From: Acidimicrobiaceae bacterium
Lineage (GTDB): Bacteria > Actinomycetota > Acidimicrobiia > Acidimicrobiales > Aldehydirespiratoraceae
Direction of reading: 5' to 3'
Assembly (NCBI GenBank): GCA_026706815.1
Contig: JAPOYA010000005.1
Span: 2,720 to 66,719, forward strand
Length of the DNA stretch: 64,000 bases
Shown: positions 42,204-62,037 of the stretch, in pieces
Layout of the letters: each line of letters begins with the position of its first letter
Position numbering within the stretch: position 1 is the first letter of the stretch
Notes under the pieces: generated by a model
Seen by the model: the letters and a program-made list of their open reading frames with translations, nothing else
Told to the model about the DNA's origin: nothing
Database searches by the model: none
Program-made: the position numbers and the translations under genes

Positions 42204-42635
42204 CTAGACGGTGAGAATTTCGAACGGCAGTTGTGCGATGAGAGCCTTGGGCCATCCGCGGTCAGTCGTTAGCAGTGCTGTGGCATCGTTGACGATCGCG
42301 GTCGCGACCACAAAAGCGTCGGGCAGCTTGAGGGAACTGTATTCGGCTCGAATGCGTGCTGCTCGGCGTGCCGTGTCTGAATCGGCGTTGAGGACCCCGA
42401 TTGGGATCGTCGCGAGCGCTGCTTCGAGTTCTTTGTCAGCACCGCCTCCTGCAGCCATGGGGTGCACGAGGCACTCGGCGAAGGCCGTCACGGGCAGCAT
42501 CAGACGCTCAGCCGTAGCCGCTAGTTGTGAAAGCGCTCGCGTAGCGGCGTGGTGGTGGCGGTCGGATCGGTCAAGGTGTCCGACGATTACCCCGGCATCT
42601 ACGACGGCCAAGCCAGTTGTGTCAGTCCCACTCAT
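42204..42635 (-). CDS. vapC: PIN-domain toxin VapC
   Basis: The track ORF is 42204..42698. The start was trimmed to the ATG at 42635 (MSGTDTTGLAVVDAGVIVGHL). Conserved acidic PIN residues are present (VVDAG, AFAE, LPDAFVVATA, TTD). It overlaps the antitoxin stop. Confidence 0.8.
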   Translation of the reverse strand: MSGTDTTGLAVVDAGVIVGHLDRSDRHHHAATRALSQLAATAERLMLPVTAFAECLVHPMAAGGGADKELEAALATIPIGVLNADSDTARRAARIRAEYSSLKLPDAFVVATAIVNDATALLTTDRGWPKALIAQLPFEILTV

Positions 42636-42870
42636 CGCGGAGTTCTTCGACTGCGCCGTCGGGGTAGATCCCGTCGAAGACACCAGCGGTTTCGGCAATC
42701 CGGTCAGCGACGCGTTCGAACAGGACGCGACCGGGACCCAGTGCTCGGCCTTGCAAAGAGTCGCCTTCGGCCAACCCTGCTGCTGCGAAAGCGCCGGCTG
42801 GGATGGTCACTTGGTGTTTGGAGGTGATCCTCGTCCAACCGGGCCGACGTTTCCTTACTAATTTGGACAT
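42622..42870 (-). CDS. vapB: AbrB/SpoVT-fold antitoxin VapB
   Basis: 82 aa from the ATG at 42870 (MSKLVRKRRPGWTRITSKHQVTIPAGAFAAAGLAEGD), the classic SpoVT/AbrB swapped-hairpin motif. Confidence 0.75.
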   Translation of the reverse strand: MSKLVRKRRPGWTRITSKHQVTIPAGAFAAAGLAEGDSLQGRALGPGRVLFERVADRIAETAGVFDGIYPDGAVEELRDEWD

Positions 42871-42943
42871 GAGTAATACTCTATCAGAGGCAATTGCGCG
42901 GCGATCAAAGGGTTTGACCTCCGATGTTGCTGGACTGTGACTA

Positions 42944-43236
42944 TCAGGTGCTTCGGTGGGCAGTGGGGAGAGCACCCACTGCTTCGCCGACCTTCCTAGC
43001 GGCGACAGCCAAGTCGTGTTGGGCTTGCAGGTTCATCCAATATTGAGGTTCGACGCCGAACCAGTGCAGCACTGGTGCAGCGCTGTGTCACCGGTTACGG
43101 ATCGCTTGCCGACGATGATCTGAGACATCCGATTAGCCGGCACAGCAATCTGGCGCGCCGATTCGGTCGGTGTGATGCCCAACTCGTCCAACTCGCCCTT
43201 CAGCACTTCCCCTGGATGCACCACCCGTCGCAGCAT
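42944..43236 (-). pseudogene. higA: HigA-type XRE antitoxin, frameshifted by an 11-bp insertion
   Basis: ORF 43033..43236 reads MLRRVVHPGEVLKGELDELGITPTESARQIAVPANRMSQIIVGKRSVTGDTAL and then loses frame. Removing ACCAGTGCTGC restores ALHWFGVEPQYWMNLQAQHDLAVAARKVGEA... with a stop at 42944. Confidence 0.65.
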
Positions 43237-43254: not shown

Positions 43255-43317
43255 TCAGTGATAGTCCACAATCTCGACATCGGTCAGCCCCTGCCCCTCC
43301 AACCAGCTAAACGGCCG
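43255..43317 (-). pseudogene. higB: HigB/RelE-type toxin, C-terminal 20-codon remnant
   Basis: Own translation: RPFSWLEGQGLTDVEIVDYH-stop, the typical HigB C-terminus. Upstream homology is replaced by an AT-rich patch (43318-43395). Confidence 0.5.
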
Positions 43318-43414
43318 TTAAATCATTTTCAGATAGTAAAAATATATAATAAGAGCTAAAAAGTCATCATGTACAAGGAAGCATTTGCAAGCTGGGTGCT
43401 GAGTGCCGCCGTTA

Positions 43415-43475
43415 CGCTAGACGGCCCCGGCCGAAGCCGGGGCCGAGGGCCAGGGCTGCTCACCCCGGCGGGGTT
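43415..43475 (-). repeat. ~60-nt double-hairpin element, copy 1 of 3 (reverse orientation)
   Basis: The reverse complement AACCCCGCCGGGGTGAGCAGCCCTGGCCCTCGGCCCCGGCTTCGGCCGGGGCCGTCTAGCG aligns with the copies at 48376 and 61789. Confidence 0.8.
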
Positions 43476-43525
43476 GGTGAGAGCGTACCTGCATCGTCCG
43501 GCGATTGAAACAGAGACCGAGAAAG

Positions 43526-44153
43526 ATGGCTGCTGAACGTGTGACCGCGTACGTGGACGGGTTCAACCTCTACTACGGCCTACTGGAAGCTCGACTTCGG
43601 AGTTCGCGCTGGCTTGACCTGCGCTTTTTGTGTGAGTCGCTGCTGCGTCCCTCTCAGCGACTCACCCTGGTTCGGTATTTCACCAGCATTGTCCGGAACC
43701 AGCCGGATGCAGCCGAACGCCAAGGCATGTACATAGATGCACTTAGAGCGACCGGCCTGATCGAAATCGACTTCGGTCACTTTCTTCCCAAGACAACCTA
43801 CTGCCGGAGGTGTGGTTTCATCCACCGGAGCGCTGAAGAGAAAAAAGACGGATGTGAATATCGCAGTGCGACTCCTTGAGGACGCATATAGCGACCGGTT
43901 CGATCTGGCGATGCTGATTTCGGCGGACAGCGATCTGGTTCCTCCGGTGGAGTCCATTCGTCGGGACTTCCCTGCGAAGACGGTCCTGGTTGCGAGTCCG
44001 CCGAAGCGATGGTCCAGCGAACTTGCCTGCGTCGCACATGCCACAACCAGAATTTCAGGAAAGCGCATCCGATTGAGCCGTCTCTCGGACCCTGTGCGCT
44101 TGGCGGACGGAACGCTGTTACGGGCCCCGCAGGGATGGCTGCCCTCGTCCTGA
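43526..44153 (+). pseudogene. NYN (LabA/DUF88-like) domain protein, +1 frameshift in an A6 run at 43841-43846
   Basis: ORF 43505..43879 (AYVDGFNLYYGLLEARLRSSRWLDL...) and ORF 43812..44153 (TDVNIAVRLLEDAYSDRFDLAMLISADSDLVPPVESIR...) are collinear with the single-frame paralogue at 61100..61723. Confidence 0.7.
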
Positions 44154-45956: not shown

Positions 45957-46583
45957 TTAACGTGACTGTTCCTCGACAACTTCGATCAGGCGATAGACAC
46001 CCGACGAGGGGTTGTCGTCGGGGAAGGTCTGTCCGGCGTTTTTGTGTCGTTCCGTGAGCCGCCGCGCCCGGTCGACGGCATCCTTTCGTGACTCCATGTA
46101 CAACTTGCTGTCGAGCCCTTTCTCCGGTGATGGGTCGTGTTTGCGGAGGATGCTGCGAGCTTGCTGGTTGTCGATCGGGCGTGTGTGATCCTGGTGGTGC
46201 AGGATGAGCCACAGTTCGAAGCACGGGTTGGATATCGCAACTTTGATGTCGTTGTCTCGAGCCATCTGGATTGCGTCGTGGAGGCGGGAGTGCTGGGTCG
46301 GCACCTCAACATCGAATACACACCAATACTCAGTGCCGGCTTCTTCGTCCGCATGCTCGTCTAGCCGAGCCTGTTTGGCTTCGGCAACGAGTCGGTGTGG
46401 GTCGTAGCCCTTGCCGCGCACATCCAATATTGAGTGCGGGCGGACGTCCGCAAGAGCGTTGAGCGCTGTGAGGTACACAGGTTCCGTGACCTTGCCTTCG
46501 CAATAGATGACGTATCGCTTCCGTTCGTCGATTCGTGGTCGCCGACGGCGCAGGGGTTTCCCTTTCCGATGCCTTGGATTCAC
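45957..46583 (-). CDS. RloB-like (TOPRIM-like) protein
   Basis: 208-aa ORF with RYVIYCEGKVTEPVYL, YWCVFDVE and VAISNPCFELWLILHHQDH motifs. It starts 9 nt after the ATPase stop. Confidence 0.75.
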   Translation of the reverse strand: MNPRHRKGKPLRRRRPRIDERKRYVIYCEGKVTEPVYLTALNALADVRPHSILDVRGKGYDPHRLVAEAKQARLDEHADEEAGTEYWCVFDVEVPTQHSRLHDAIQMARDNDIKVAISNPCFELWLILHHQDHTRPIDNQQARSILRKHDPSPEKGLDSKLYMESRKDAVDRARRLTERHKNAGQTFPDDNPSSGVYRLIEVVEEQSR

Positions 46584-46592
46584 CGCGGGACC

Positions 46593-47894
46593 TCAGGCGT
46601 CGATGCCCAGCGCTTCGCGGACGAGGTACTGGTCAACGATCGGTACGCCACCAAAGCGCCCTTGGAGGTATCCGCGTTCGAGGTTTGTCGATTTCCGTAC
46701 GCGGTCTCCACGGAAATCTGACAGCGGCGTCAAGGCAGTGCTGCCGTCCGCTCCTTTGTCGGTGAGCCACACTTCGTCGCGATTCAGATGGCCGAGCAGG
46801 CTCGTGTCGTGCGTTGTGAAGATCAACTGCGCATTGTGGCGGTTGGTGTCGGGGTCCTGGAACATCTCGACGAGCTTTCCCGAAATCGCCGGGTGCAGGC
46901 TCGAGTCGAGCTCGTCCATCATCAGTGTGCCGCCGTGTTGAAAAACGGTCAGCAGGTCCGGCATCAACGCCAACCAAGCGAGCGTACCGTTTGATTCTTC
47001 GCCCAGTTCCAAAGGGTACGGCGCGCCGATTACGTCGTGCAGCAGCCGCAAACGTCGTCCTCGGTAACGTCCTCGGTAACCCATCTCATCGTCAGAATTG
47101 TCAGCGACCTCCACGTCCAAAACACCGAGGTCGGCAAAGCGAAGCATGGCCAGTGCTTGCACGCGATCGATGTCTCGGTTCGACCTAGTGCTTGCTTCCG
47201 CAGCGGGCGACTCGGGAGTTGTGTCGCCAAAGACTTCGAGCAGTGATTCGTGCCAGTCGTGCCTCCCTCGACCGAATCCGAAACGATGGATTCGGATATC
47301 TGGCGGCATGGACGACTGAGGCCACACACCGATGAACTCGATCCCGAGCACGGCGGTCGCGACCGCGTCGATTTCTTCGGTCAGACGACTGGCAACAGAC
47401 AGGACCAGTGTCGTCGAGGTGATGAGCTCGCGGCCGCCTCCGGTGACTCGGGTACCGCGGCGAAATGCAACCTCGTTGCCCTCGCGGACGAAGAGCGCAC
47501 GACGACGGCCCTGCGGGTAGCTGTACAGAGCTTCGAACTGAACGGACGCGTCGACTTCGAGTTCGTAGCGGTGGCGGACTCCGTTGACCACGATGTCTAG
47601 ACCGAATCCCGTTGGGAGAGTGTCATCGCCACCGAAGGCGAAGGGGTCGCGGGGGATCTCGCGTTCCCATCCTTTCAGCGATGCCCGAATCGCATACTGC
47701 AACCAAGCGAAGCCGTCGAGGACGTTCGTCTTGCCTGAACCGTTGGCCCCGTAGATTCCAGCTACCGTCAGGGCTTTCTCGTCGCCCCAACCCAGCGGTC
47801 GTGCGGCTTCCCGATCGCGGTTCACCGCGATCATCGACAGCTCGACCGGTTCCATGATCGACCGGTGATTCGAGACCTCAAACCGCAGCAGCAC
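46593..47894 (-). CDS. AAA_21/ABC-type ATPase (RloA/AriA-like)
   Basis: 433-aa ORF with Walker A GANGSGKTN, Walker B/D-loop LMMDELDSSLHP and H-loop IFTTHDTSLL. Confidence 0.8.
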   Translation of the reverse strand: MLLRFEVSNHRSIMEPVELSMIAVNRDREAARPLGWGDEKALTVAGIYGANGSGKTNVLDGFAWLQYAIRASLKGWEREIPRDPFAFGGDDTLPTGFGLDIVVNGVRHRYELEVDASVQFEALYSYPQGRRRALFVREGNEVAFRRGTRVTGGGRELITSTTLVLSVASRLTEEIDAVATAVLGIEFIGVWPQSSMPPDIRIHRFGFGRGRHDWHESLLEVFGDTTPESPAAEASTRSNRDIDRVQALAMLRFADLGVLDVEVADNSDDEMGYRGRYRGRRLRLLHDVIGAPYPLELGEESNGTLAWLALMPDLLTVFQHGGTLMMDELDSSLHPAISGKLVEMFQDPDTNRHNAQLIFTTHDTSLLGHLNRDEVWLTDKGADGSTALTPLSDFRGDRVRKSTNLERGYLQGRFGGVPIVDQYLVREALGIDA

Positions 47895-48375
47895 CGACCC
47901 ACCCCTTTCATTCTGAAGCGCAATTAATAGTATGTTTTTGTACTATATCTGCGAAGTTTAGTCTTTACATGCACAATGGGTGCGAATCAAACCGGTGGTT
48001 GGCATCAGCTGAATCACCTTTACCTCGACAGCGACCTCCGACGGGAGTTGGCTCGACCACGCGCAGTAGGGGATTCAGTCTGGTCTGTTTCGATCTGAAG
48101 ATCCACGCGAGTTCGGGCGCCGAATCGCTCGCGAGACTTTTGAGCGCTACGTGCAGTCTCGAGAGAGCACAGAGGTCGAAGACAAGCGCTGAAGTTGGCC
48201 CGTTTTGTCGGCGTCGCCCTGTGGTCACAGGTTCAATGCATCGCTGCTCAGTCGCAGAACAGCTCTGAATTGCATCGTTTCGGCATGTCCGGTCCAGAGC
48301 GAGAGCTACGGCTGAGCCATGCATGTTCTGGACACCTCGTGCACTGACAGACGGTCCAAGGCGATATCATCAGCG

Positions 48376-48436
48376 CACCCCGCCAAGGTGAGTAGCCTTG
48401 GCCCGACGGCCCCGGCTTCGGCTGGGGCTGTTTAGC
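48376..48436 (+). repeat. ~60-nt double-hairpin element, copy 2 of 3
   Basis: CACCCCGCCAAGGTGAGTAGCCTTGGCCCGACGGCCCCGGCTTCGGCTGGGGCTGTTTAGCG. Confidence 0.8.
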
Positions 48437-48625
48437 GTCTGAGCGGAGGCGCGGCGGCAGTATACACTACCGATCGGCGTGCACCGACACGTGAAACTAA
48501 TGGCATGGCTTGCAGATCATGTGACCCGGTGTCCAATGGCACGACTCAGCTCTGTAACTCCGTTAGTGTTTCGTCAGCCAGCCCCGATGTGCCACTTTCG
48601 AGCTGGACCAACGAGATGAAGGATC

Positions 48626-49015
48626 ATGAGCACAGATGCGCCCGACATCACCACGAACGAGGCAATGACCCTCGCGCAACGACTGAGGGAGGCGCGTGAG
48701 CACATCGGCCTACGGCAAGAGGACATCGCGATGGCGCTGGATATATCGAGAGCAAGCGTGACAGCGGTTGAGTCTGGGAAGAGAGACGTAACGCCAGCCG
48801 AGCTCAGGCGTCTCAGCCGCATCTATCGACGGCCCGTGTCGTGGCTGCTCGGTGACGAGAGCGCCGAAGCCGATATGGATCCGCCGCTGCATCGCGCGAC
48901 AACAGCATTGTCGGCAACGGAAAGGGAACGGATATTGCGCCGGGCGGAGTTCCGCGCCGGAGCGGGGAGTGTTGCTACTGTCGAGCGAGGCGCGAATCAC
49001 TACCCGGGAAGCTAA
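48626..49015 (+). CDS. XRE-family helix-turn-helix protein
   Basis: 129-aa ORF with HTH LAQRLREAREHIGLRQEDIAMALDISRASVTAVESGKRDVTPAELRRLSRIY. It lies upstream of the type I R-M operon. Confidence 0.75.
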   Translation: MSTDAPDITTNEAMTLAQRLREAREHIGLRQEDIAMALDISRASVTAVESGKRDVTPAELRRLSRIYRRPVSWLLGDESAEADMDPPLHRATTALSATERERILRRAEFRAGAGSVATVERGANHYPGS

Positions 49016-49019
49016 CGCG

Positions 49020-49151
49020 GTGGCCGATACAGAAGTCACTACGAACCAGCGGATTTACGACGAACAACACAGAGAGCGGTTTGAACGCGACCACAAGGGA
49101 CGTGTCGCGTTGATGTGCTCAGACAAGATCATCGACTTCCGCATCGTTTGA
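49020..49151 (+). CDS. possible 43-aa small ORF (GTG start)
   Basis: Own translation: VADTEVTTNQRIYDEQHRERFERDHKGRVALMCSDKIIDFRIV. It is the only open frame between the XRE gene and hsdM. No family is assigned. Confidence 0.25.
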   Translation: MADTEVTTNQRIYDEQHRERFERDHKGRVALMCSDKIIDFRIV

Positions 49152-49192
49152 CAGAAATCGTGGAACTCCGCCGTGTCGGCTAAAACAGAGCG

Positions 49193-50749
49193 ATGGTCAC
49201 GGGGGAGTTGAAACGGCAGATCGATTCTGTTTGGAACGACTTCTGGTCGGGGGGCATCTCGAATCCGCTGGAGGTGATGGAGCAGCTGACTTACCTGCTG
49301 TTCATCAAGGCGCTGGACGAGCAGTAGACGCTCGCGGAGAACAAAGCGAACCGCACCGGCGAGCCGATCCCGGCTGGGGACGACATCTTTCCTGAGAGGC
49401 AGGAGTTCCGGCCTGAGGGGCGCGCTGAGGGTCGGCTGTTTGGCGACCTGCGCTGGTCCCAGTTCAAGAACCGCCCGGCTGGCGAGATGTTTGACATTGT
49501 CGAGAACTATGTATTCCCGTTTCTGCAGGTGCGGGCAGGCGAGAGCAGCCACGCCAAGCATATGCGTGACGCCCGGCTCACGATCCCCACGCCGGCTCTG
49601 TTGCAGAAGGCGGTGGACGGGCTCGATTCGGTCGAGATGCAGGATCGAGACACCAAGGGCGATGTCTACGAGTACATGCTTTCGAAGATCGCGACGGCAG
49701 GCCAGAACGGCCAGTTCCGCACGCCGCGGCACATCATCGAGTTGATGGTCGAGATGACGGCGCCCCAGCCTGATGACCTGATCTGCGACCCCGCCAGCGG
49801 AACGTGCGGCTTCCTGGTCGGCGCCGGGGAGTACATCCGGCGAGAGCATCCGAGTGCGCTCACCAGCCCCGACCAGTCAAAACACTTCCACAACGGGATG
49901 TTCTCGGGCTACGACTTCGACAACACGATGCTGCGGATCGGGTCGATGAACATGCAGCTCCACGGTGTCCAAAACCCGAACATCAGCTACCGGGACTCAC
50001 TGGCCGAGGAACACGCCGGTGATGCTGAGGCCTACAGCCTGATCCTCGCAAACCCGCCGTTCGCTGGCTCGTTGGACTACGAGGGCACAGCCAAGGATCT
50101 CTTGCAGGTCGCCAGGACGAAGAAGACCGAGCTGTTGTTCATCTCGCTCTTCCTGCGCTTGCTCAAGCCAGGCGGCCGAGCGGCGGTCATCGTCCCCGAC
50201 GGTGTGCTGTTCGGCTCAACGAAGGCGCACAAGGAGCTTCGCCGGATCTTGGTTGAGGACCAGAAGCTCGACGGCATCATGTCGCTGCCGGCTGGTGTGT
50301 TTAAGCCGTATGCCGGGGTTTCCACGGCGATCTTGCTGTTCACCAAGACGAACTCCGGGGGGACTGATTTCGTCTGGTTCTACGACCTTCAGGCCGACGG
50401 TCTCAGCCTTGACGACAAGCGCAACCCACTACTCAACGAGGACAAGCTCGGTGCGCTTGCTGGCGCCTTGACCGGCGACGAGCCCGAGAGGAACAACCTT
50501 CCCGATGCGCTCGCACGTTGGCGGCAGCGCGACGGCTCCGAAATCGAGCGGGCGGCGACTGAGCAATCGTTCTGCGTGGCGAAGGCCGACATTGCGGCAA
50601 GCGACTACGACCTCAGCATCAACCGGTACAAGCAGGTCGTCTACGACGAAGCCGACTATGAGCCGCCGACTGTGATTCTCGACGAGCTTGTCGCTCTTGA
50701 GCGGGAGATTCAGGAGGGCATCGATGACCTCAAGGCCGCGCTGGGATGA
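49193..50749 (+). CDS. hsdM: type I R-M N6-adenine methyltransferase HsdM, interrupted by an in-frame TAG at 49325-49327 (longest intact ORF 49487..50749)
   Basis: Own translation from the ATG at 49193: MVTGELKRQIDSVWNDFWSGGISNPLEVMEQLTYLLFIKALDEQ-TAG-TLAENKANRTG..., in the same frame as the track ORF. Motifs DPASGTCGF and LANPPFAG are present. Confidence 0.85.
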
Positions 50750-51702
50750 GGGGACAATTGAGGCTCGTCGTCGATCGAGCGTTTGATGAACTCTGGCAGC
50801 CACTCATGAATTATGATAACTGCCCCCCGAATGTCTTTGGTGAGGTGTTTGCCAGTTTGCGCCCGTTTCTGCGTGAGCCCGAACCGGAGTACGTGAAGGA
50901 AGACGACGGCACAATTCACAACAAAGCGGTCAACCTTGATGATCAGGCCGCACTCGCAATGAGTGACTCAGAAACAGCTGAGATTCTGCTGACCGGTTTG
51001 TCAGAGGAAGACTTTGAGTCAGAGACTGATGCCCGACGAGCCGTCAGTAGCACCTACGGTGTCCTTGTTGACGTAGCGACCGATGAATTCGCGAATAGAT
51101 ACCTCAGTCTTCTTGAGATGTTCATTGACCGATACAGCTTGCGGTACTACGTCGATGAGAGGGCGCGGCTCCGGACCTCGTTTTCGGGACTTGCTACAGC
51201 GTTGTTCGGGCAACTCCGCTTGGCGGCGGAAGGCCACCCTCATCTCTTTCAGGAACTCAGCGCGTTCGAACACGCTTTAGCTGAATGTCTTGAGGAGCCC
51301 TTGGAGGCTCGAATCAAGACAGCTATCCAGAAACAGGTAAACGTTCTCGAAGCCTTTGGTTCACAACATCGTCTCGTTTCTGGCGACACACTAGGACGCA
51401 TGCTCGAGCAGGTCGGCAGCTGGCCACACGCCAGTCTTCGCGACGCTGCGAAACAGGTTTACAAGTTTGCGTGTGACTACCCAGGTATTCGTCACGGAGG
51501 CGACTTCGAATCATCTATGCGCGCACTGGATCTGCGTGATCTAACCAGCGTCACGCTTTCACTCGTCGGGCTGGTCGCGTACATGGCTGACGGCTTCGAG
51601 GAGCAAGTTGTCTCCGCGATGCAGGGCGATCTCGTTCCGGCTGTCACTCTCAGCAACTCTTTGGCATCTCGGACTTCTGAACATGCGGGCGGAGCGAGTT
51701 AG
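50746..51702 (+). CDS. uncharacterised protein embedded between hsdM and hsdS
   Basis: 318-aa ORF. Its ATG overlaps the hsdM TGA (ATGA), and its stop is 3 nt before the hsdS ATG. GC content is visibly lower than in the core genes. No family was recognised with confidence. Confidence 0.6.
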   Translation: MRGQLRLVVDRAFDELWQPLMNYDNCPPNVFGEVFASLRPFLREPEPEYVKEDDGTIHNKAVNLDDQAALAMSDSETAEILLTGLSEEDFESETDARRAVSSTYGVLVDVATDEFANRYLSLLEMFIDRYSLRYYVDERARLRTSFSGLATALFGQLRLAAEGHPHLFQELSAFEHALAECLEEPLEARIKTAIQKQVNVLEAFGSQHRLVSGDTLGRMLEQVGSWPHASLRDAAKQVYKFACDYPGIRHGGDFESSMRALDLRDLTSVTLSLVGLVAYMADGFEEQVVSAMQGDLVPAVTLSNSLASRTSEHAGGAS

Positions 51703-51705
51703 CCC

Positions 51706-52830
51706 ATGACGTGGTCTTCTAGATCCGACGTTGCGTTGGGTGACGTGAAGTGGCCTATTGCTCGCCTTCACGATGTAGCGACCATAGAAAGGAACGCAGT
51801 ATCGGTGGATCAGATCCAGGGAGGCGAGTTTTATGTTGGCTTGGAGAATGTGACCAGTGACGGAGTGTTCGAGAACGTGGTGACGGCGGGCAAGGCGGGC
51901 TTGAAGAGCAACAAATTCGCCTTTACCGAGGATCACGTGCTCTACGGCAAGCTACGTCCGTACCTCGCCAAGATCTCCGCACCTGACTTCGCTGGTATCT
52001 GCAGCACCGACATACTCCCCATTAGACCAGGTGCCAGACTTGACCGTCGCTACTTGCTGCACTATCTGCGAACGCCGACAATGGTTACCCATGCGGCGAG
52101 CAACGCCGTGGGAATAAATCTTCCCCGACTAAATCCGAAGGCATTAGAGTCATTCCAGATTCCACTGCCACCGATTGAGGAGCAGCGGCGGATTGCAGCT
52201 GTGCTGGATGCGGCTGAGACGCTCCGGGCGAAGCGCCGTCAGGCGCTCGCCACGTTCGACACGCTGACTCGGGCGATCTTCATCAGCATGTTTGGCGACC
52301 CGATTTTGAGGTCGATGCAGTTGGATTTGGTTCCACTTGGCGACCTTCTCAAACTGAAGAGTGGGCAAGGGCTGTCGGCGAAGGCGATGCGGCCCGGTCC
52401 TCATCTGGTGTACGGCGGGAACGGCGTAGTGGGGACGCACGACGAGTACATGTTTGAAGGATCCAAAATCGTGATCGGTCGGGTGGGTGTTTATTGCGGT
52501 TGCGTCCATATATCTGAGCCACGGAGTTGGATAACGGACAACGCGCTCTACGTCAGCTGGATGAGCTCACGCCTCCGCACGACGTACCTCGCTGCGGCTC
52601 TCGATCTGGCAAATCTGAATCGACGGGCGAGCCAAGCCGCCCAGCCTCTGATCTCTGGTGGACGTATCTATCCGGTCGAGATTCCCGTACCGCCTCTCAA
52701 TTCCCAGCACGTCTTCGAGGAGAGAACCCGAGCGATCACAGAGCATCGAATTCGGATCGAAGAGGGTGCCGAGAAGTTGAACGAGCTGTTCGCGTCGCTG
52801 CAGCAGCGGGCGTTTCGGGGGGAGTTGTGA
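51706..52830 (+). CDS. hsdS: type I R-M specificity subunit HsdS
   Basis: 374-aa ORF with two target-recognition halves, each followed by a conserved helix (LPPIEEQRRIAAVLDAAETLRAKRR and PVPPLNSQHVFEERTRAI...LFASLQQRAFRGEL). Confidence 0.85.
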   Translation: MTWSSRSDVALGDVKWPIARLHDVATIERNAVSVDQIQGGEFYVGLENVTSDGVFENVVTAGKAGLKSNKFAFTEDHVLYGKLRPYLAKISAPDFAGICSTDILPIRPGARLDRRYLLHYLRTPTMVTHAASNAVGINLPRLNPKALESFQIPLPPIEEQRRIAAVLDAAETLRAKRRQALATFDTLTRAIFISMFGDPILRSMQLDLVPLGDLLKLKSGQGLSAKAMRPGPHLVYGGNGVVGTHDEYMFEGSKIVIGRVGVYCGCVHISEPRSWITDNALYVSWMSSRLRTTYLAAALDLANLNRRASQAAQPLISGGRIYPVEIPVPPLNSQHVFEERTRAITEHRIRIEEGAEKLNELFASLQQRAFRGEL

Positions 52831-55800
52831 GCGAGTCGCAGTTCTCGTTCCTCGAGGCTGAGTTTCAGCCGGAGCTCGATTCGGCGTCGCGGGCCGAGGG
52901 GTACGCGCTGTCGGACCCGGGAGCTGCAGTCATCTACGCGCGCAAGTGCCTCGAGTCGGCTGTCAAGTGGATGTACCGGCACGACCGTGCGCTGGCCGAG
53001 CCGTACGACGCGACGCTCGGTGCACGGTTGAACGATGCCGCCTTCAAGGCGCTGGAGGGTGGCCGGATCTTCGATGTGGCAAGAAAGATCCAGCGGGCGG
53101 GGAACCGTGCGGTGCACGAGTCGAAGGCGCCGTCGAAGCTGGAGACGGTCGAGATCATCTCGGCGCTGTTCCAGTTCTGCCTCTGGTTCGCGTTTACCTA
53201 CGGCCGCACCTCGAAACCCGACCTGTCGCTGCGGTTCAACCCTCACCGACTGCTGGACGCGGGCGAAGCCGAGCGGGCTTCGCTGCGCGAGCGCCAGGAG
53301 CTCGAGAAGCAGCTTGAGCATGAGACCGAAGAGCGCGTTGCAGCGCAGATGCGGCTGGCGGAATCGAGCCGTACCGCCGAGGAGCTGAACGCCGAGCTGG
53401 CGGAGCTGCGCGCAGAGGTCGCTGCGGCGAAGAAGAAGGCGGCCGAGACGGTCCCGCCGGAGGCCTTCGACTGGTCTGAGGCCGAGACGCGCGAGTTCAA
53501 GATCGACGCTCTGCTGGCTGAGGCCGGCTGGACCGGTCTCGTGGAGGGCCGTGACACCGAGTACGAGGTGCGCGGGATGCCCTCCGAGTCGGGCATCGGC
53601 TACGTGGACTATGTGCTGTGGGGCGCCGATGGCAAACCGCTCGCCGTCGTGGAGGCCAAGAAGGCGCTGACGGATCCGAAGGTCGGCGAGCAGCAGGCCA
53701 AGCTCTATGCCGACTGCTTGGAGGCCGAATCCGGCCAGCGGCCGCTCATCTACTGCAGCAACGGCTATGAGCACTGGCTGTGGGACGACACTCAGTATCC
53801 GTCCCGTCGGGTGCAAGGGTTCTGCACCCGCGACGAGCTGGCCTGGCTCATCCAGCGTCGCACGGGTTTCAAGTCGCTGGCATCACTGGACGCCGGCGAG
53901 CAGATCGTCGACCGCCATTACCAGCGGCGGGCGATCAGCGCCATCACCGAGCACTTCGAGCACAGCAACCAGCGCAAGGCATTGCTGGTGATGGCGACGG
54001 GTGCGGGCAAGACCCGCACGGTGATCGCTTTGGTGGATCTGCTGATGCGAGCCGGGTGGGTGAAGCGGGTGCTGTTCCTGGCCGATCGCACGGCGCTCGT
54101 GAATCAGGCCGTGAACGCCTTCAAGACGAACCTGCCCGACTCGGCGCCGGTGAACCTGGTGACCGAGGGCAACGTGGACGGCCGGGTGTACGTGTCGACC
54201 TATCAGACGATGGTCGGCAAGATCGACGAGTACCGGGCCGACGGGACCCGCCGGTTCGGGGTGGGGCACTTCGACCTGGTGGTGATCGACGAAGCGCACC
54301 GGTCGGTGTACCGGAAGTACCGGGGCATCTTCGAGTACTTCGACTCGCTGCTGGTGGGCCTGACCGCGACTCCCAAGGATGAGGTCGACAAGAACACCTA
54401 CGACCTGTTCGACCTGGAGACGGGCGTGCCCACTGACGCCTATTCGCTGGACGATGCCATCAAGGACGGGTATTTGGTGCCGCCCCAGGGTGTGTCGGTC
54501 GAGCTCAAGTTCGTGCGCGAGGGCATCAAGTACGACGAGCTGAGCGACGACGAGAAGGACGATTGGGACGAGCTGGACTGGGGCACCGACGATGAGGGCG
54601 ATCCGCTGGATCCGCCCGACGCAGTCGACCCCGCCGAGCTCAACAAGTGGCTCTTCAACAAGGACACCGTCGACCGTGTGCTCGAGCATCTGATGACCGA
54701 GGGCGTCAAGGTGGCCGGCGGCGACCGGCTGGGCAAGACGATCATCTTCGCCAAGAACCAGAAGCACGCCGAGTTCATCAAGGAGCGCTTCGACGCCAAC
54801 TACCCATCGCTGGATGCAGGCAACTTCGCCCGGGTCATCACGCACCAGGTGAAGTACGGCCAGAGCCTGATCGACGACTTCTCCAACAAGACGAAGGCGC
54901 CCCACATCGCGATCAGCGTGGACATGCTGGACACCGGCATCGACGTGCCCGAAGTCGTCAACTTGGTGTTCTTCAAGATGGTGCGGTCGAAGACCAAGTT
55001 CTGGCAGATGCTGGGCCGGGGGACTCGGCTGTGTCCGGACCTGTTCGGGCCCGGCGAGCACAAGACGCACTTCAACGTGTTCGACTTCTGTCAGAACCTC
55101 GAGTACTTCAGCCAGGCGCTCGTGCCAGCAGAGAAATCGACCGGCAAGTCGCTCAGCGAGATCCTGTTCTCGGCGAGGTTGGAGCTTCTGCAGACGCTCG
55201 ACTCGGTGGCGGCGTTCGGCGACGAACGGGCCGAGATCGCAGCCACGCTGCACCGGACTGTGGAGTCGATGAACCCCGACAACTTCCTGGTGCGCCCTCA
55301 CTTGGAATTGGTGGAGCGGTTCAGCACGTTGGCTGCGTGGGAGACAGTGTCATTGGCGGACTTGGCTGAACTCAATGAGCGAGTTGCCAAGCTGCCCGAC
55401 CAACTCGATGCCGACAGCGAGGACGCCAAACGCTTCGACGTGGTGATGCTGAACGCGCAGCTTGCTCTGCTGCGGCAATACCCGTTCGAGCGGCAACGGC
55501 GGCGGATCATCCGCGTTGCCTCCGCGCTGGCGGACCTTGGCACGGCCATTCCCGTCGTGGCCCGGCAGCAGGAGTTGATTGCGGACGTCCAGACCGACGA
55601 ATGGTGGGCCGACGTCACCTACCCGATGCTCGAAGACGCCCGCAAGCGGTTGCGCAACCTCGTGCAACTCATCGAGTACACCAACAAGAACATCCTCTAC
55701 AGCGACTTCGCCGATGAGTTCGGTGGGGCCAGGATGGTTGACTTGCCTGGCACCGGTGGAGCGGGTGGGGCTGGCGATGCTGGGGGCGGCGACGGCGGTG

Positions 55801-56294
55801 GCGTTGGTGGCGATGGCCGCGACGAGTTCGCCCAGTTCCGCAAGAAGGCGCAGAACTTCCTGAAGGAGAACCTTGCCGATGACATCGTGGCCAAGGTCCG
55901 CAGCGGCGAGCCGTTGACTGCGGCTGACATGGACGACCTGCAGCGAGTGCTGGTTGCCGCCGGCATCGGTGACGACGAGACCTTTGCCGAGGCATCACAG
56001 TGGGCCGGCAGCTTCGGGTTGTTCATCCGCTCGTTGGTGGGACTCAACCGGGCCGCCGCTAAGCGCGCTTTCGCCAAGTTCCTCGACGACAAGCAATACA
56101 ACGTCAACCAGATCCGCTTCGTCGAAATGGTGATCGACTACCTGACCGAGCACGGCACCATCGAGAGCGGGCGCGTCTACGAGTCACCCTTCACGTCCGT
56201 TGCGCCCCAAGGTCCCGAAGCTCTGTTCGCCGAGCCCGACCAAGCCGACTTCTTCCAAATCATCCAACACCTCCAAAGCACCGCCACGGCCTGA
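52827..56294 (+). CDS. hsdR: type I R-M restriction subunit HsdR (DUF4145-type N-terminus, SF2 helicase)
   Basis: The track ORF is 52527..56294. The start was trimmed to the GTG at 52827, overlapping the hsdS stop (GTGA). It has an HSDR_N-like nuclease region ([22 protein letters not shown]), Walker A [9 protein letters not shown] and the DEAH box VIDEAHRS. A Gly-rich insert ([23 protein letters not shown]) lies near the C-terminus. Confidence 0.85.
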   Translation: [1155 protein letters not shown]

Positions 56295-56392
56295 CAGGTA
56301 CGTGCTTGCATCGCGACAGCAAATTGCGGCATGGCTCTTGTAGGGGCAGAATTGCCAGGAAAGTATCGGTATGCCCTTGGCGGAAAAGGATC

Positions 56393-57094
56393 ATGAGCGG
56401 AGTGTCAGCACGAAGCACAGAGTCGGTTCCGAACTGTCCGAGATGCGAGCGTCCAATGGTTCTGCGCACCGCGCGGAAGGGAGCGAACGCGGGCAACCAG
56501 TTCTGGGGATGCACTGAATTCCCTCGGTGCCGCGGCACGTTGCAGATCAAGTCACCGGTGGACGCAGCAGGCGACATGGAGCGACCCGCGCCGCCCGAAG
56601 AATTCCAAACCAGCGTCGAAGAAGAATCAATCTTAGAAGCTGACGACAAGCCTCAGGGGTTCTTTGCGAAGGTCGCAAAGACTGTCGATAAGGTCCAGCG
56701 CCGGTACCTGGAATCTGACGAACCTGACGCTGCTGGCCGCTGGAACGATGACCATCGGCTCAGCATGCTCAAGTACGTTTACAGGCGCGACGGCGGACGA
56801 TGCGGTTTGTGCGGTGCGGAAATGAAGCTCAAGGGCGCTCAGATTGACCACATCGTTCCGAAGGTGTTCGCCTTCTTTGACGTCAACGATCGCGGCAAGG
56901 CCGAACCGGGGGCGTACTACAAAAGCCGTCTGCACAAGATCGACAACCTCCAAGCAGCGCACACCTATTGCAACAAGCGCAAGGCCAACAAGCCCGAAAT
57001 CACCAAGTGGCGACATGAGACGATGCCACCGCTGACCGTTGCTGACACCGAAGACAGTAGAGGCTTAGTGCTTCCTAGGAATCCAGCAGCGTGA
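56393..57094 (+). CDS. HNH endonuclease with an N-terminal topoisomerase-type C4 zinc ribbon
   Basis: The track ORF is 56306..57094. The ATG at 56393 follows AAAGGA. Zinc ribbon CPRCERPMVLRTARKGANAGNQFWGCTEFPRCRG; HNH motif CGLCG...IDHIVPK...NLQAAHTYCNKRK. Confidence 0.75.
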   Translation: MSGVSARSTESVPNCPRCERPMVLRTARKGANAGNQFWGCTEFPRCRGTLQIKSPVDAAGDMERPAPPEEFQTSVEEESILEADDKPQGFFAKVAKTVDKVQRRYLESDEPDAAGRWNDDHRLSMLKYVYRRDGGRCGLCGAEMKLKGAQIDHIVPKVFAFFDVNDRGKAEPGAYYKSRLHKIDNLQAAHTYCNKRKANKPEITKWRHETMPPLTVADTEDSRGLVLPRNPAA

Positions 57095-57552
57095 GCAATC
57101 CCGGCGCAACTCACGCGGCGCTTGACCAGAACCGGATGATCGTTCTTTCTCTCAAGCCGAAGTTCGCGGACGCGATTCTCGCTGGTGCCAAGACGGTTGA
57201 GCTGAGGCGATCGGAGCCGAAGATCGTTGTGCCGACGCGGGCGCTGGTCTATGCGACGTCGCCGGTCCGGGCGCTCGTCGGAACGTGCATTGTGACGAGT
57301 GTCGAATCCGAACAGCTGGCAACCCTGTGGCGGGAATACGGCCCGCGAACTGGGGTCAACCATCAGGAGTTCTTGGATTACTTCGAAGGAGTCGAGAAGG
57401 GCACTGCCTTGACGCTCGAAGATCCAGCTTCGCTCCTCCAACCGATTCCGCTCACGCGCCTGCGTGAGACATCGCAGGGGTTCAGACCCCCGCAGAGCTT
57501 CGCCTACGTCGACACCCAGACCGGCGCCGAACTCCTGCGACTAGCGGCGTAG
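57091..57552 (+). CDS. ASCH (PUA-like) domain protein
   Basis: 153-aa ORF whose GTG overlaps the HNH stop (GTGA), with an alternative ATG at 57136. MIVLSLKPKFADAILAGAKTVELRR is the typical ASCH N-terminal strand pattern. Confidence 0.65.
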   Translation: MSNPGATHAALDQNRMIVLSLKPKFADAILAGAKTVELRRSEPKIVVPTRALVYATSPVRALVGTCIVTSVESEQLATLWREYGPRTGVNHQEFLDYFEGVEKGTALTLEDPASLLQPIPLTRLRETSQGFRPPQSFAYVDTQTGAELLRLAA

Positions 57553-61099: not shown

Positions 61100-61723
61100 C
61101 TAAGCAGGATTTGGGGTTGGTAGCCATCCTTGTGGTGCCCGCAGCACAACACCCTCGGGTGTGATTACTGGATCTGGGAGACGGTTCGACCGGATAGCGG
61201 CACGCGAGACCTGGAACGCAGCGTGTGCCGACTGGGCGAGGTCCGCAGACCAGCGCTTTGGAGGAGAGGCCACGATTACGCGCTTGCGACGGAAGCGCTG
61301 CCGGACAGCCTCGACGCTTGGCACAAGGTCGCTGTCGCCGGAGATGACCATTGCCATGTCGAAGCGGTCCTCGTAGGCATCGGAGAGGAGCCGAACCGCG
61401 ATGTTCACGTCTGTCCGCTTCTCCTCGTTCTTGGTCCACTGCGTGTTGCACGTGCGGCAAGTCACCTGCTTGGACATGAACAGCCCGAAGTCAATCTCGA
61501 TACCTCCCCTGGTACGGAGAGCGTCAATGAAGATTGCCTGACGTTTTGCTGCGGCCGGGTCGTTGCGAACGCTGGTGGTGAAGTAGCGGACTAGGTCGAG
61601 GCGTTGGCCGGGCTTGAGGAGTGATGAGCAGACACCGTGAAGGTCAAGCCAGCGGGAGGTTCGAAGGCGCGCGTCAAGGAGGCCGTAGTAGAGGTTGTAC
61701 CCGTCGATGTAGGCGATGACTCG
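61100..61723 (-). CDS. NYN (LabA/DUF88-like) domain protein with an inserted CxxC zinc-ribbon-like segment; start codon unresolved
   Basis: Track ORF 61100..61477 plus my in-frame upstream translation (RVIAYIDGYNLYYGLLDARLRTSRWLDLHGVCSSLLKPGQRLDLVRYFTTSVRNDPAAAKRQAIFIDALRTRGGIEIDFGLF). There is no in-frame ATG, GTG or TTG upstream of 61477. Confidence 0.7.
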   Translation of the reverse strand, partial: RVIAYIDGYNLYYGLLDARLRTSRWLDLHGVCSSLLKPGQRLDLVRYFTTSVRNDPAAAKRQAIFIDALRTRGGIEIDFGLFMSKQVTCRTCNTQWTKNEEKRTDVNIAVRLLSDAYEDRFDMAMVISGDSDLVPSVEAVRQRFRRKRVIVASPPKRWSADLAQSAHAAFQVSRAAIRSNRLPDPVITPEGVVLRAPQGWLPTPNPA

Positions 61724-61788
61724 TTCCCTTGACCCGATCCGACGACGATACCTGTCCTTCTGTCGCAGGGTGCTGATATCTTTAAGTA

Positions 61789-61849
61789 CAACCCCCCCAG
61801 GGTGAGTAACCCTGGGCCGACGGCCCCGGCTTAGGTCGGGGCTGTCTCG
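61789..61849 (+). repeat. ~60-nt double-hairpin element, copy 3 of 3
   Basis: CAACCCCCCCAGGGTGAGTAACCCTGGGCCGACGGCCCCGGCTTAGGTCGGGGCTGTCTCG. Confidence 0.8.
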
Positions 61850-62037
61850 TTTTGTACGCGCGCCGCCGGATCATGACCGCAAGGATCTGTAATGCAATGG
61901 GTTGCATTGACCGCGAAAGCGAGAAAGTCCCTGATCCGGCCCCTTGGATTTGGCTTGATCGGGAGCGTACTTGCTGGTGAGTCGGCGGGGTCGCCGGGCG
62001 GTGGCTCAGCGATGGAATTCGTACTCAACAGGGCGAA

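What the first reader, a model, noticed from the sequence alone, without database searches (positions are those of the whole stretch)
48376..48436. A ~60-nt double-hairpin element present three times (43415-43475 reverse, 48376-48436, 61789-61849) with compensatory substitutions
Seen: the three aligned copies are AACCCCGCCGGGGTGAGCAGCCCTGGCCCTCGGCCCCGGCTTCGGCCGGGGCCGTCTAGCG (reverse complement of the copy at 43415), CACCCCGCCAAGGTGAGTAGCCTTGGCCCGACGGCCCCGGCTTCGGCTGGGGCTGTTTAGCG, and AACCCCCCCAGGGTGAGTAACCCTGGGCCGACGGCCCCGGCTTAGGTCGGGGCTGTCTCGTT. Hairpin 1 is a 7-bp stem with a TGAG(T/C)A(G/A) loop. It keeps pairing through two double changes (G-C to C-G at the base, and A-T to G-C inside) plus one G-T wobble. 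Hairpin 2 is a 9-bp GGCCCCGGC stem with a TTCG or TTAG loop. It keeps pairing through G-U wobbles that work only in this orientation; the opposite strand would have A-C mismatches. Two copies lie immediately 5' of the two NYN paralogues, in antisense orientation to them. The third lies in a gene-poor spacer. Inference: this is a selected structure. It could be a structured RNA transcribed antisense to the NYN 5' ends, a terminator-like module (T-rich tails GTTTAGCG and TCTCGTTTTGT follow hairpin 2), or a recombination site that moves with the NYN cassettes.
Basis: partly seen in the sequence, partly recalled or inferred. Interest (0 to 1): 0.65.

Follow-up and report, generated by a model that had tools for sequence, protein, structure and literature searches.

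The report
Small RNA partner of NYN nucleases
The three repeats are copies of an undescribed ~60-nt small RNA gene that, across many bacteria, almost always sits next to a candidate anti-phage NYN nuclease gene (HEC-09), so that "single-gene" system is probably an RNA-protein pair.

Summary
The window has exactly three copies (covariance-model scores 79, 76 and 62 bits; nothing else above 18). The two-hairpin fold is supported by strong covariation in about 200 relatives (18 of 19 pairs with compensatory changes). G·U pairs fix the strand.

Each copy has the anatomy of a small RNA gene:
- a TANNNT -10 box ending 6-7 nt before the start;
- a 5' AAC..C tail;
- hairpin 1 with an xxAGYAx loop;
- a CC linker;
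- hairpin 2 on a GACG/CGUY base, followed by UCU and a U-run, which is its own terminator.

The family is absent from Rfam 15.

The NYN link is real and reciprocal. At least 77 of 79 NYN loci retrieved by protein similarity alone carry the RNA, usually divergent and about 58 nt away. The NYN protein is a full-length match to PADLOC HEC-09. About 43% of RNA copies, including window copy 2 and all 16 viral copies, have no NYN gene nearby.

My best reading is a trans-acting RNA partner of the nuclease, most likely a type III-like antitoxin. That mechanism is inferred, not shown. The alternatives (overlapping antisense RNA, recombination site, REP repeat) are not supported.

The parts
48376..48441 (+). 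sRNA gene copy 2, the flagged copy and an orphan with no NYN gene nearby. 5' tail (C)ACCCC 48376-48381; hairpin 1 48382-48402 (loop UGAGUAG); linker CC 48403-48404; hairpin 2/terminator 48405-48432; tail UAGCGUCUG.
   Evidence: Model hit of 76.3 bits, E 1e-17. RNAfold z -4.26. No NYN remnant in the 1 kb upstream, even with hmmsearch --max.
48365..48370 (+). Putative -10 box TATCAT of copy 2, 6 nt before the A at 48377.
   Evidence: Read from the sequence. A TANNNT box at this position occurs in 104 of 135 family members against 95 of 2000 control positions.
61790..61855 (+). sRNA gene copy 3. 5' AACCCC; hairpin 1 61796-61816 (closing pair C-G; loop UGAGUAA); linker CC; hairpin 2 61819-61846; tail UCGUUUUGU.
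   Evidence: Model hit of 79.2 bits. The terminator scan calls 61819-61846 plus a T-run. RNAfold z -5.07.
61777..61782 (+). Putative -10 box TATCTT of copy 3, 7 nt before the A at 61790.
   Evidence: Read from the sequence; family-wide enrichment as above.
43411..43475 (-). sRNA gene copy 1, on the minus strand and partly degenerate. 5' AACCCC 43475-43470; hairpin 1 43469-43449 (one G·U pair; loop UGAGCAG); hairpin 2 core 43445-43422. A 1-nt deletion destroys the conserved GA at the base of hairpin 2.
   Evidence: Model hit of 61.9 bits, with two mismatched base pairs flagged. Positions G71 and A72 are 97-99% conserved in the family.
43482..43487 (-). Putative -10 box TACGCT of copy 1, 6 nt before the A at 43475.
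   Evidence: Read from the sequence; family-wide enrichment as above.
43526..44153 (+). NYN (HEC-09-type) gene 1, divergent from copy 1. Its ATG lies 50 nt from the RNA start. The gene is frameshifted: the N-terminal part ends at 43879 and the C-terminal part is read from 43812 in another frame.
   Evidence: ORF list and Pfam NYN match on the C-terminal part; tblastn and HMM matches to both halves.
61100..61741 (-). NYN (HEC-09-type) gene 2, divergent from copy 3. The frame is open, but there is no canonical start codon where the family starts.
   Evidence: PADLOC HEC-09 E 1.5e-80 over 2-202 of 203 positions. Translation. AF2 pLDDT 91.5 with best PDB match 2QIP. 100% identical to NCBI MAG protein P0016, which is annotated from MDGYNLYY.

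Best explanation
Each copy is a self-contained gene for a small RNA of about 55-65 nt. It has a housekeeping-type promoter, with the -10 TANNNT box ending 6-7 nt before the start. The RNA carries an unpaired 5' AAC..C tail, hairpin 1 (7-8 bp, loop xxAGYAx), a CC linker, and hairpin 2 on a conserved GACG/CGUY base. Hairpin 2 together with UCU and a U-run is the RNA's own intrinsic terminator.

The RNA belongs to a large, unannotated family that is the near-obligate genomic partner of HEC-09-type NYN (MARF1-like) nuclease genes.

The mechanism I think most likely is this. The RNA acts in trans on the NYN protein as a type III-like antitoxin or restraint. It is made in excess from a strong promoter and binds and holds the RNase in check. 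When transcription collapses, for example during phage infection, the RNA is lost and the nuclease is freed. NYN-less copies, such as window copy 2 and all viral copies, would then be spare or 'anti-addiction' antitoxins, and in phages they would act as counter-defence.

Shown: the RNA-gene anatomy, the covariation, the strand, and the two-way RNA-NYN association. Inferred: that the RNA binds NYN, that NYN is toxic, and that the RNA inhibits rather than activates it.
For: Structure and strand:
- 95.7% of cells are paired. 11 of 19 pairs carry double changes in the RNA-first alignment, and 18 of 19 (333 cells) in the NYN-anchored alignment. No shuffle reaches these values, and slid controls reach 57% at most.
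- The closing pair of hairpin 1 is seen as G-C, A-U, C-G and U-A.
- G·U pairs at the base of hairpin 2 (54-64 sequences) would be A·C mismatches on the other strand.

Gene anatomy:
- A TANNNT box sits at -10 to -14 in 77% of copies against 4.8% of controls.
- The UCU + U-run tail is 81-92% conserved.

Association:
- Starting from NYN protein similarity alone, 74 of 79 loci have the RNA with default filters. Three more are recovered at 28-33 bits and two weakly, at the expected spot, with filters off.
- Starting from the RNA, 56 of 113 chromosomal copies lie beside an intact NYN gene and 8 more beside 5'-truncated remnants.
- The pair also occurs in Thermus oshimai (Deinococcota) and on viral contigs.

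Trans action:
- The layout varies: 67 divergent, 4 upstream on the same strand with the terminator before NYN (ToxIN-like), and 3 convergent.
- Distant NYN subfamilies carry a similar two-hairpin + U-tract RNA directly upstream in the same orientation.

Toxin/antitoxin-like asymmetry:
- NYN almost never occurs without the RNA, whereas about 43% of RNA copies lack NYN.
- Copies with no NYN gene nearby sit on at least 10 distinct viral contigs.

Conserved unpaired bases (A2, C3, C6; loop A, G, A; CC; GACG) point to recognition by a protein. NYN keeps its catalytic Asp/Glu residues. AvcID is a precedent for a single, non-repeated sRNA antitoxin that is lost on transcription shut-off (PMC10511110).
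Against: - No experiment shows that the RNA is expressed, that it binds NYN, or that NYN is toxic.
- Classical type III antitoxins are tandem repeats co-transcribed with the toxin and processed by it. Here the RNA is a single unit and is divergent in about 85% of loci.
- HEC-09 gave no phage protection in E. coli (10.1101/2024.01.29.577857), so even a defence role is unproven.
- The many orphan copies, with their heterogeneous neighbours, could mean the RNA has a function of its own.
Confidence: 0.5

Rival explanations
1. The RNA is a positive cofactor of the NYN nuclease (scaffold, sensor or specificity subunit of an RNP effector), not an inhibitor.
For: This rests on the same near-obligate co-occurrence and the same conserved unpaired bases. 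It could also explain why HEC-09 was inactive in a heterologous host if RNA expression or processing failed there.
Against: - About 43% of RNA copies, and all 16 viral copies found through the RNA, have no NYN gene nearby. That is hard to explain for a mere cofactor.
- The accessible single-stranded parts are only 6-7 nt long, too short for a guide.
- The variable parts are locked inside stems.
Confidence: 0.2
2. The RNA regulates NYN expression. It would do so either by base-pairing with the NYN mRNA (a type I-like, divergently encoded trans-antisense RNA such as istR-1/tisB) or by competition between the back-to-back promoters.
For: - The arrangement is divergent. The NYN -10 box (for example TATTGT) abuts the RNA's -35 element, and in Actinomycetes the NYN Shine-Dalgarno sequence lies inside the RNA promoter region.
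Against: - The transcripts do not overlap.
- Duplex energies between each sRNA and its own NYN mRNA (-40 to +63) are no better than with non-cognate NYN mRNAs (mean rank 0.48-0.53, z about 0).
- The same RNA occurs upstream on the same strand, convergent downstream, in tandem pairs and as orphans. That rules out a purely cis or promoter-occlusion role.
Confidence: 0.12
3. The element is an autonomous module: a general-purpose sRNA, a promoter-terminator insulator, or a structured recombination or attachment site. It would mark cassette boundaries in defence islands and phages, and NYN would be only its commonest passenger.
For: - Orphan copies lie precisely between unrelated genes, often sharing their terminator with a convergent gene.
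- Eight copies abut 5'-truncated NYN genes.
- Copies cluster: three within 18 kb here, and two per locus in several sponge-symbiont MAGs.
Against: - The RNA is present at 97% or more of NYN loci retrieved by the protein alone.
- No neighbour other than NYN recurs. No recombinase family appears in the neighbour summaries either, though the window and the loci were not searched for one directly.
- The 3' consensus CGUYUCUUUUU is not a GTTRRRY core.
- The strand-specific G·U pairs, the promoter and the U-tail all argue for an RNA product.
Confidence: 0.08
4. It is a REP/BIME-like palindromic repeat or a chance GC-rich terminator.
For: The stems are GC-rich and palindromic, as is common in high-GC genomes.
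Against: - There are only three copies in 64 kb, all within the 43-62 kb island.
- No shuffle matches the pattern.
- The loop, linker and tail bases are conserved across phyla, and the element is tied to NYN.
Confidence: 0.01

Closest known systems
Type III toxin-antitoxin systems (ToxIN, CptIN, TenpIN)
   Same: A small structured RNA gene lies beside an endoribonuclease-type gene. A terminator follows the RNA. In 4 of 79 loci, and in distant NYN subfamilies, the layout is promoter-RNA-terminator-nuclease. The module occurs in defence islands, plasmids and prophages. RNA copies with no NYN gene nearby occur on viral contigs, which recalls phage pseudo-ToxI (my own knowledge).
   Different: The protein has a NYN/PIN-like fold, not a ToxN/AbiQ fold. 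The RNA is a single unit (two abutting units in 5 loci), not a repeat array. It is usually divergent, with its own promoter. Processing, binding and toxicity are all untested.
AvcID (sRNA AvcI + deaminase AvcD)
   Same: A single, non-repeated sRNA is made in excess and binds and inhibits an adjacent defence enzyme. The system is activated when phage shut off host transcription (PMC10511110). This is the closest model for how the element may work.
   Different: The effector is a dCTP/dCMP deaminase, not an RNase. AvcI is unrelated in sequence and structure.
HEC-09 (PADLOC 'Hma-embedded candidate 09')
   Same: The window's NYN protein matches the HEC-09 model end to end (E 1.5e-80). The published representative (P. 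amygdali WP_005744958.1) is 62.6% identical to the Thermus oshimai NYN, which carries the RNA.
   Different: HEC-09 is described as a single protein gene with no RNA component, and it gave no protection in the phages tested. The RNA partner is new. I could not check the P. amygdali locus itself.
Divergently encoded type I antitoxin sRNAs (istR-1/tisB, orzO/zorO)
   Same: A small RNA gene is transcribed divergently from a putative toxin gene without overlapping it.
   Different: Those RNAs pair with the toxin mRNA, and their toxins are small membrane peptides. Here no cognate complementarity was found. The weak Rfam istR match (14.6 bits against a 45-bit threshold) covers only the terminator.
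Mycobacterium sRNA B55 (Rfam RF01783)
   Same: A ~61-nt actinobacterial sRNA with a hairpin carrying a UGAG-type loop, followed by a GC-rich terminator. It was the best sub-threshold Rfam match.
   Different: It scores 15.8 bits against a gathering score of 70 (E 2.1), so the element is not a member.

Membership tests
Type III toxin-antitoxin system | The protein partner is an endoribonuclease toxin. | tested here: inconclusive
   The NYN fold (Pfam PF01936; AF2 pLDDT 91.5; best PDB match 2QIP) and the conserved acidic residues D13, E106/E107, D111, D128, D136 and D138 are present. Neither RNase activity nor toxicity was tested.
Type III toxin-antitoxin system | The antitoxin RNA is encoded upstream of the toxin in the same operon, separated from it by a terminator. 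| tested here: not met
   67 of 74 RNA-bearing NYN loci have the RNA divergent with its own promoter, and only 4 have the ToxIN-like layout. Distant NYN subfamilies do show that layout.
Type III toxin-antitoxin system | The antitoxin is an array of tandem repeats processed by the toxin. | tested here: not met
   The RNA is a single unit in the great majority of loci. Two abutting units occur in L272, L293, L295, L296 and L306. Processing cannot be tested here.
Type III toxin-antitoxin system | The RNA binds the toxin protein and neutralises it. | not testable with these tools
   This needs co-expression, co-purification or EMSA experiments.
PADLOC HEC-09 (the NYN protein) | Full-length match to the HEC-09 profile. 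| tested here: met
   E 1.5e-80 over 2-202 of 203 positions for window NYN2, and E 3e-80 for L263.
PADLOC HEC-09 (the NYN protein) | Location inside or next to other defence systems. | tested here: met
   The window's 42-63 kb stretch holds a type I R-M operon, an AAA_21 + RloB pair, Abi_C, PDC-M11B and antitoxin-like genes.
Any Rfam 15 family | Score at or above a family's gathering threshold. | tested here: not met
   The window scan finds only three tRNAs. E-value mode on copy 2 and on five diverse relatives gives only noise at the element.
Type I TA, divergent trans-antisense sRNA | Complementarity between the sRNA and its own toxin mRNA. | tested here: not met
   Cognate against non-cognate duplex energies give a mean rank of 0.48-0.53 (n = 74). 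Only positions -40 to +63 of the mRNA were tested.
REP/BIME-like repeats | Many copies dispersed through the intergenic regions of a genome, with no specific gene partner. | tested here: not met
   Three copies in 64 kb, all within 18.5 kb, and NYN partnership in 97% or more of NYN loci. The whole genome was not available.
Integron attC site | Imperfect palindrome with R/L boxes ending in a GTTRRRY core. | tested here: not met
   The 3' ends read GTTTAGC, GTCTAGC and GTCTCGT, and the family consensus is CGUYUCUUUUU.
Integron attC site | Lies in a cassette array next to an intI integrase gene. | not tested
   I did not look for an intI gene in the window or in the related loci.

The most novel reading that the evidence does not exclude
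HEC-09 is not a single-gene system but an RNA-dependent immune module of a new type. The small RNA would be the sensor or switch of the NYN nuclease rather than a passive antitoxin. Phages, including jumbo phages, would carry their own copies as RNA decoys that disarm it, making this an RNA-versus-RNA layer of the phage-host arms race. A two-hairpin RNA partner would be ancestral to the wider bacterial NYN/LabA-like family.
Probability: 0.2. Interest if true: 0.85.

Novelty: new variant of a known kind. Interest (0 to 1): 0.72.

Why it matters
- It adds an unannotated, phylum-spanning small RNA family. The family is found in Actinomycetota and Deinococcota, in low-GC metagenomic lineages and on viral contigs. 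Its covariation support is unusually clean.
- It redefines a catalogued candidate defence system (HEC-09) as a two-component RNA-protein module. That gives a concrete, testable reason for the negative result in E. coli. It also shows what must be cloned together for a fair test.
- If the RNA is an antitoxin, this would be a new type III-like family with a NYN/PIN-like toxin and a single-unit, divergently transcribed RNA.
- The NYN-less copies on viral contigs would be candidate RNA anti-defence genes.
- Defence-finder pipelines that work on proteins alone would miss the RNA. They would also miss the orphan RNA copies that mark decayed modules.

Tried and rejected
- **Rfam.** Gathering mode on the window and E-value mode on copy 2 and on five diverse relatives gave no family. 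The best hit was b55 at 15.8 bits against a 70-bit threshold.
- **BLAST of the element.** Against PLSDB plasmids it gave only 24-31-nt chance matches to hairpin 2. Against GenBank phages it gave no match.
- **Outer third stem.** RNAfold proposed one enclosing both hairpins in copies 2 and 3. Family-wide, cognate flanks pair no better than non-cognate flanks (5.19 against 5.0 bp), and the 5' flank lies upstream of the inferred start. Rejected.
- **Phage late-operon leader or antitermination (put/nut/Q-like) module.** Viral locus L002 has the element just before terminase-like genes. Downstream gene orientation is random across the family, so I rejected this as a general explanation.
- **Antisense pairing with the NYN mRNA.** No cognate signal.
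- **A second conserved protein partner for the NYN-less copies.** The neighbours are heterogeneous: DUF5131 6, GP88 5, HTH_3 3, ribonucleotide reductase 3, DUF3800 2, AbiEii 2.
- **NYN remnant beside copy 2.** None found, even with all HMMER filters off.
- **Strict E. coli-type promoter scan.** It did not call the three window promoters, because their -35 elements are weak. The evidence for promoters is the family-wide -10 enrichment.
- **Locating the source contig through P0016.** Not on record.
- **The published P. amygdali HEC-09 locus.** It could not be fetched, so the presence of the RNA there is inferred from its 62.6% identity to the Thermus homologue.

Full report
**1. The observation**

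Degenerate patterns derived from them match nothing else in the window, and none of 100 dinucleotide shuffles matched. A covariance model (R1) built later from 98 relatives was run over all 64 kb with filters off. It finds exactly three full-length hits: 61790-61855 + (79.2 bits), 48376-48441 + (76.3 bits) and 43411-43475 - (61.9 bits). The next best scores, at 18 bits or less, are the complementary strands of the same hairpins.

The named strand folds into the two hairpins with z-scores of -4.3 and -5.1 for copies 2 and 3, against -2.7 and -2.8 for the opposite strand. Hairpin 2 is really 12 bp long, with GACGGCC pairing to GGCYGUY at its base. Copy 1 has lost one base at that conserved junction.

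**2. Relatives and structure**

Nearly all the genome-derived copies are from Actinomycetota. They include many Acidimicrobiia (among them sponge-symbiont MAGs), Streptosporangiales, Pseudonocardiaceae, Asanoa, Mycolicibacter, Arthrobacter, Bifidobacteriaceae and Propionibacteriales.

On the model-based alignment of 94 genome hits:
- 95.7% of cells are paired;
- 11 of 19 pairs show changes on both sides (186 cells);
- no shuffle of 500 reaches the observed values;
- sliding the partners drops pairing to 57% or less.

A second set, retrieved only through the NYN protein and therefore not shaped by my DNA pattern, does better. 18 of 19 pairs covary (333 cells), again with 95.7% pairing.

The pair closing hairpin 1 is found as G-C, A-U, C-G and U-A. 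G·U pairs at the base of hairpin 2 (54-64 sequences) would be A·C mismatches on the other strand, so the functional molecule is read from this strand.

**3. It is a small gene**

A TANNNT hexamer starts 10-14 nt upstream of model position 1 in 104 of 135 Actinomycetota copies and in 47 of 78 NYN-anchored copies. At random positions of the same loci the rate is 95 of 2000. Many copies also have TTGAC(A) 16-19 nt further upstream. In the window the boxes are:
- TACGCT at 43487-43482 on the minus strand (copy 1);
- TATCAT at 48365-48370 (copy 2);
- TATCTT at 61777-61782 (copy 3).

Each ends 6-7 nt before the A that precedes CCCC.

At the 3' end, UCU plus a U-run is 81-92% conserved. The inferred product is therefore about 55-65 nt:

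5'-AAC-NN-C | hairpin 1, loop xxAGYAx (AUAGCAU, AUAGUAU or UGAGUAG) | CC | hairpin 2 on a GACG/CGUY base | UCUUUUU

The unpaired A2, C3, C6, the loop A-G-A, the linker and the GACG base are 77-99% conserved across GC contents from 0.36 to 0.82.

No Rfam 15 family matches, either in the window or in five diverse relatives.

**4. The NYN link is real and runs both ways**

The protein next to copies 1 and 3 is a ~205-aa NYN protein. It matches the PADLOC HEC-09 profile end to end (E 1.5e-80), keeps the catalytic acidic residues and models confidently as a NYN fold (pLDDT 91.5; best PDB match 2QIP).

*Starting from the RNA.* Of 113 chromosomal copies, 56 lie beside an intact NYN gene. Of these, 53 are divergent with the NYN start 34-126 nt (median 62) from CCCC, one is on the same strand, and two are second copies in a tandem pair. 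Eight more abut 5'-truncated NYN remnants. The remaining 49 have no NYN gene within about 400 nt.

*Starting from the protein.* I took 80 metagenomic loci chosen only by NYN similarity (38-50% identity). Of the 79 with usable flank, 74 have the RNA with default filters. Three more score 28-33 bits with filters off, and the last two have weak hits (15.7 and 9.4 bits) at the expected place.

The layouts are 67 upstream divergent (median gap 58 nt), 4 upstream on the same strand with the terminator just before NYN, and 3 convergent downstream.

The pair also occurs on Thermus oshimai plasmid pTHEOS01. That NYN is 62.6% identical to the published HEC-09 representative from P. amygdali. The pair is present on viral or prophage contigs as well.

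The preprint that defined HEC-09 describes a single NYN/MARF1-like protein. It reports no protection against the phages tested and mentions no RNA (10.1101/2024.01.29.577857). Full-text searches linking NYN to an RNA partner found nothing.

**5. How the two genes relate**

In the Acidimicrobiia loci the NYN -10 box (for example TATTGT, about 10 nt before the ATG) lies back-to-back with the RNA's -35 element. In Actinomycetes the NYN Shine-Dalgarno sequence lies inside the RNA promoter region.

Duplex energies between each sRNA and its own NYN mRNA (-40 to +63) are no better than with other NYN mRNAs (mean rank 0.48-0.53). This argues against a type I-like antisense mechanism.

The same RNA occurs divergent, in tandem with NYN, convergent, duplicated and alone. 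Its effect must therefore come from the RNA product acting in trans.

Distant NYN subfamilies (27-37% identity) are found on viral contigs and on small enterobacterial plasmids. They carry a comparable element directly upstream of NYN in the same orientation: a C-rich 5' tail, hairpin, 2-nt linker, GC hairpin, then UUGCUUUUU. Weak R1 hits of 12-24 bits cluster at exactly that position. This is the classical type III layout. I have not tested homology for these elements rigorously.

**6. The copies without NYN**

Window copy 2 has no NYN remnant nearby. It lies about 190 nt upstream of an HTH gene followed by a type I R-M operon. Family-wide, the NYN-less copies have heterogeneous neighbours and no second recurrent partner. 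In the sponge-symbiont genomes they sit precisely between unrelated genes, and their terminator often serves a convergent gene as well.

All 16 viral copies found through the RNA lack NYN within the fetched flanks. They include five ~270-kb jumbo-phage contigs that share an identical low-GC copy, which keeps every conserved base.

**7. Interpretation**

*Shown:* a new structured small-RNA gene family that is tightly and reciprocally coupled to HEC-09-type NYN genes.

*Inferred:* the RNA acts on the NYN protein. I favour an inhibitory, type III/AvcID-like role for four reasons:
- The occurrence is asymmetric. The nuclease almost never occurs without the RNA, but the RNA often occurs without the nuclease, including on viral contigs.
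- The RNA has a strong, autonomous promoter.
- Some family members have the ToxIN-like layout.
- The conserved unpaired bases look like a protein-binding signature.

AvcID shows that a single, non-repeated sRNA can hold a defence enzyme in check until phage shut off transcription (PMC10511110).

The main rival is that the RNA is a positive cofactor. Regulation of NYN expression, a recombination or cassette-boundary site, and a REP-like repeat all fit the data progressively worse.

In this window the modules look worn. NYN1 is frameshifted and its RNA (copy 1) has lost the conserved GA. NYN2 lacks a canonical start codon, although its RNA (copy 3) is canonical. Assembly errors in a MAG cannot be excluded.

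**8. Limits**

- Nothing here shows expression, binding or toxicity.
- The model-fitted alignments lean towards the modelled structure, although the slid and shuffled controls are far below the observed values.
- The -35 elements are weak in the three window copies, and a strict E. coli-type scan does not call them.

Noticed in passing
window 43526-44153 (+) and 61100-61741 (-): Both NYN genes look compromised. NYN1 is frameshifted between 43812 and 43879. NYN2 has an open frame but no ATG, GTG or TTG at the family's start position. The identical NCBI MAG protein (P0016) is annotated from MDGYNLYY, which drops the first beta-strand. This could be decay or assembly error.
   Followed up: partly
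window 43300-43370: An AT-rich patch of about 70 nt (ttttagctcttattatatatttttactatctgaaaatgattta) lies just 3' of copy 1, between it and a truncated HigA-like ORF. It looks like an insertion or deletion scar.
   Followed up: no
window 48626-57552 (+): A long operon lies downstream of copy 2: an XRE-type HTH gene (C-protein-like), a type I methyltransferase, an unknown 318-aa ORF, the specificity subunit, the restriction subunit, a 262-aa ORF with no match, and a PDC-M11B candidate defence protein.
   Followed up: partly
window 42622-43236 (-), 45957-47894 (-), 62038-62940 (-): More defence or TA content surrounds the copies: an AbrB-like antitoxin ORF, a truncated HigA-like ORF, an AAA_21 ATPase + RloB pair, and an Abi_C-domain protein. 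The 42-63 kb stretch is a defence island. Three tRNA genes (Asn, Met, Val) lie at 20.8-31.3 kb.
   Followed up: partly
L361-L415 (viral contigs), L354 and L270 (Klebsiella and E. coli small plasmids): More distant NYN subfamilies have a two-hairpin + U-tract element immediately upstream of NYN in the same orientation (a ToxIN-like layout). The enterobacterial plasmid versions also have a divergent HTH gene. The element may be a diverged homologue of the sRNA, which would make an RNA partner ancestral to the wider NYN family.
   Followed up: partly
L293, L295, L296, L306 (about 2311-2434), L272 171-303: Two sRNA units abut head to tail with no spacer upstream of a single NYN gene. Where I compared the two units (L293, L295, L296), one has an AUAGCAU loop and the other a UGAGCAG loop. 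The second unit has no room for a promoter of its own, which implies read-through and possibly processing.
   Followed up: no
L017, L024, L025, L027, L030 (IMG/VR contigs of about 270 kb): Five jumbo-phage contigs from different samples share an identical low-GC copy of the sRNA (AACCCCUCC...GAUAGUAUC...CCGACGGCCUCC...UUUAUUUUUU), next to a GP88-family gene and with no NYN gene in the fetched flanks.
   Followed up: partly
L152, L166, L212, L220, L232, L253 (1190-1246), L256, L268: In eight genomes an intact sRNA gene abuts a NYN gene that has lost its 5' part. This suggests deletions that repeatedly end at the RNA promoter, or selection to keep the RNA while the nuclease decays.
   Followed up: no
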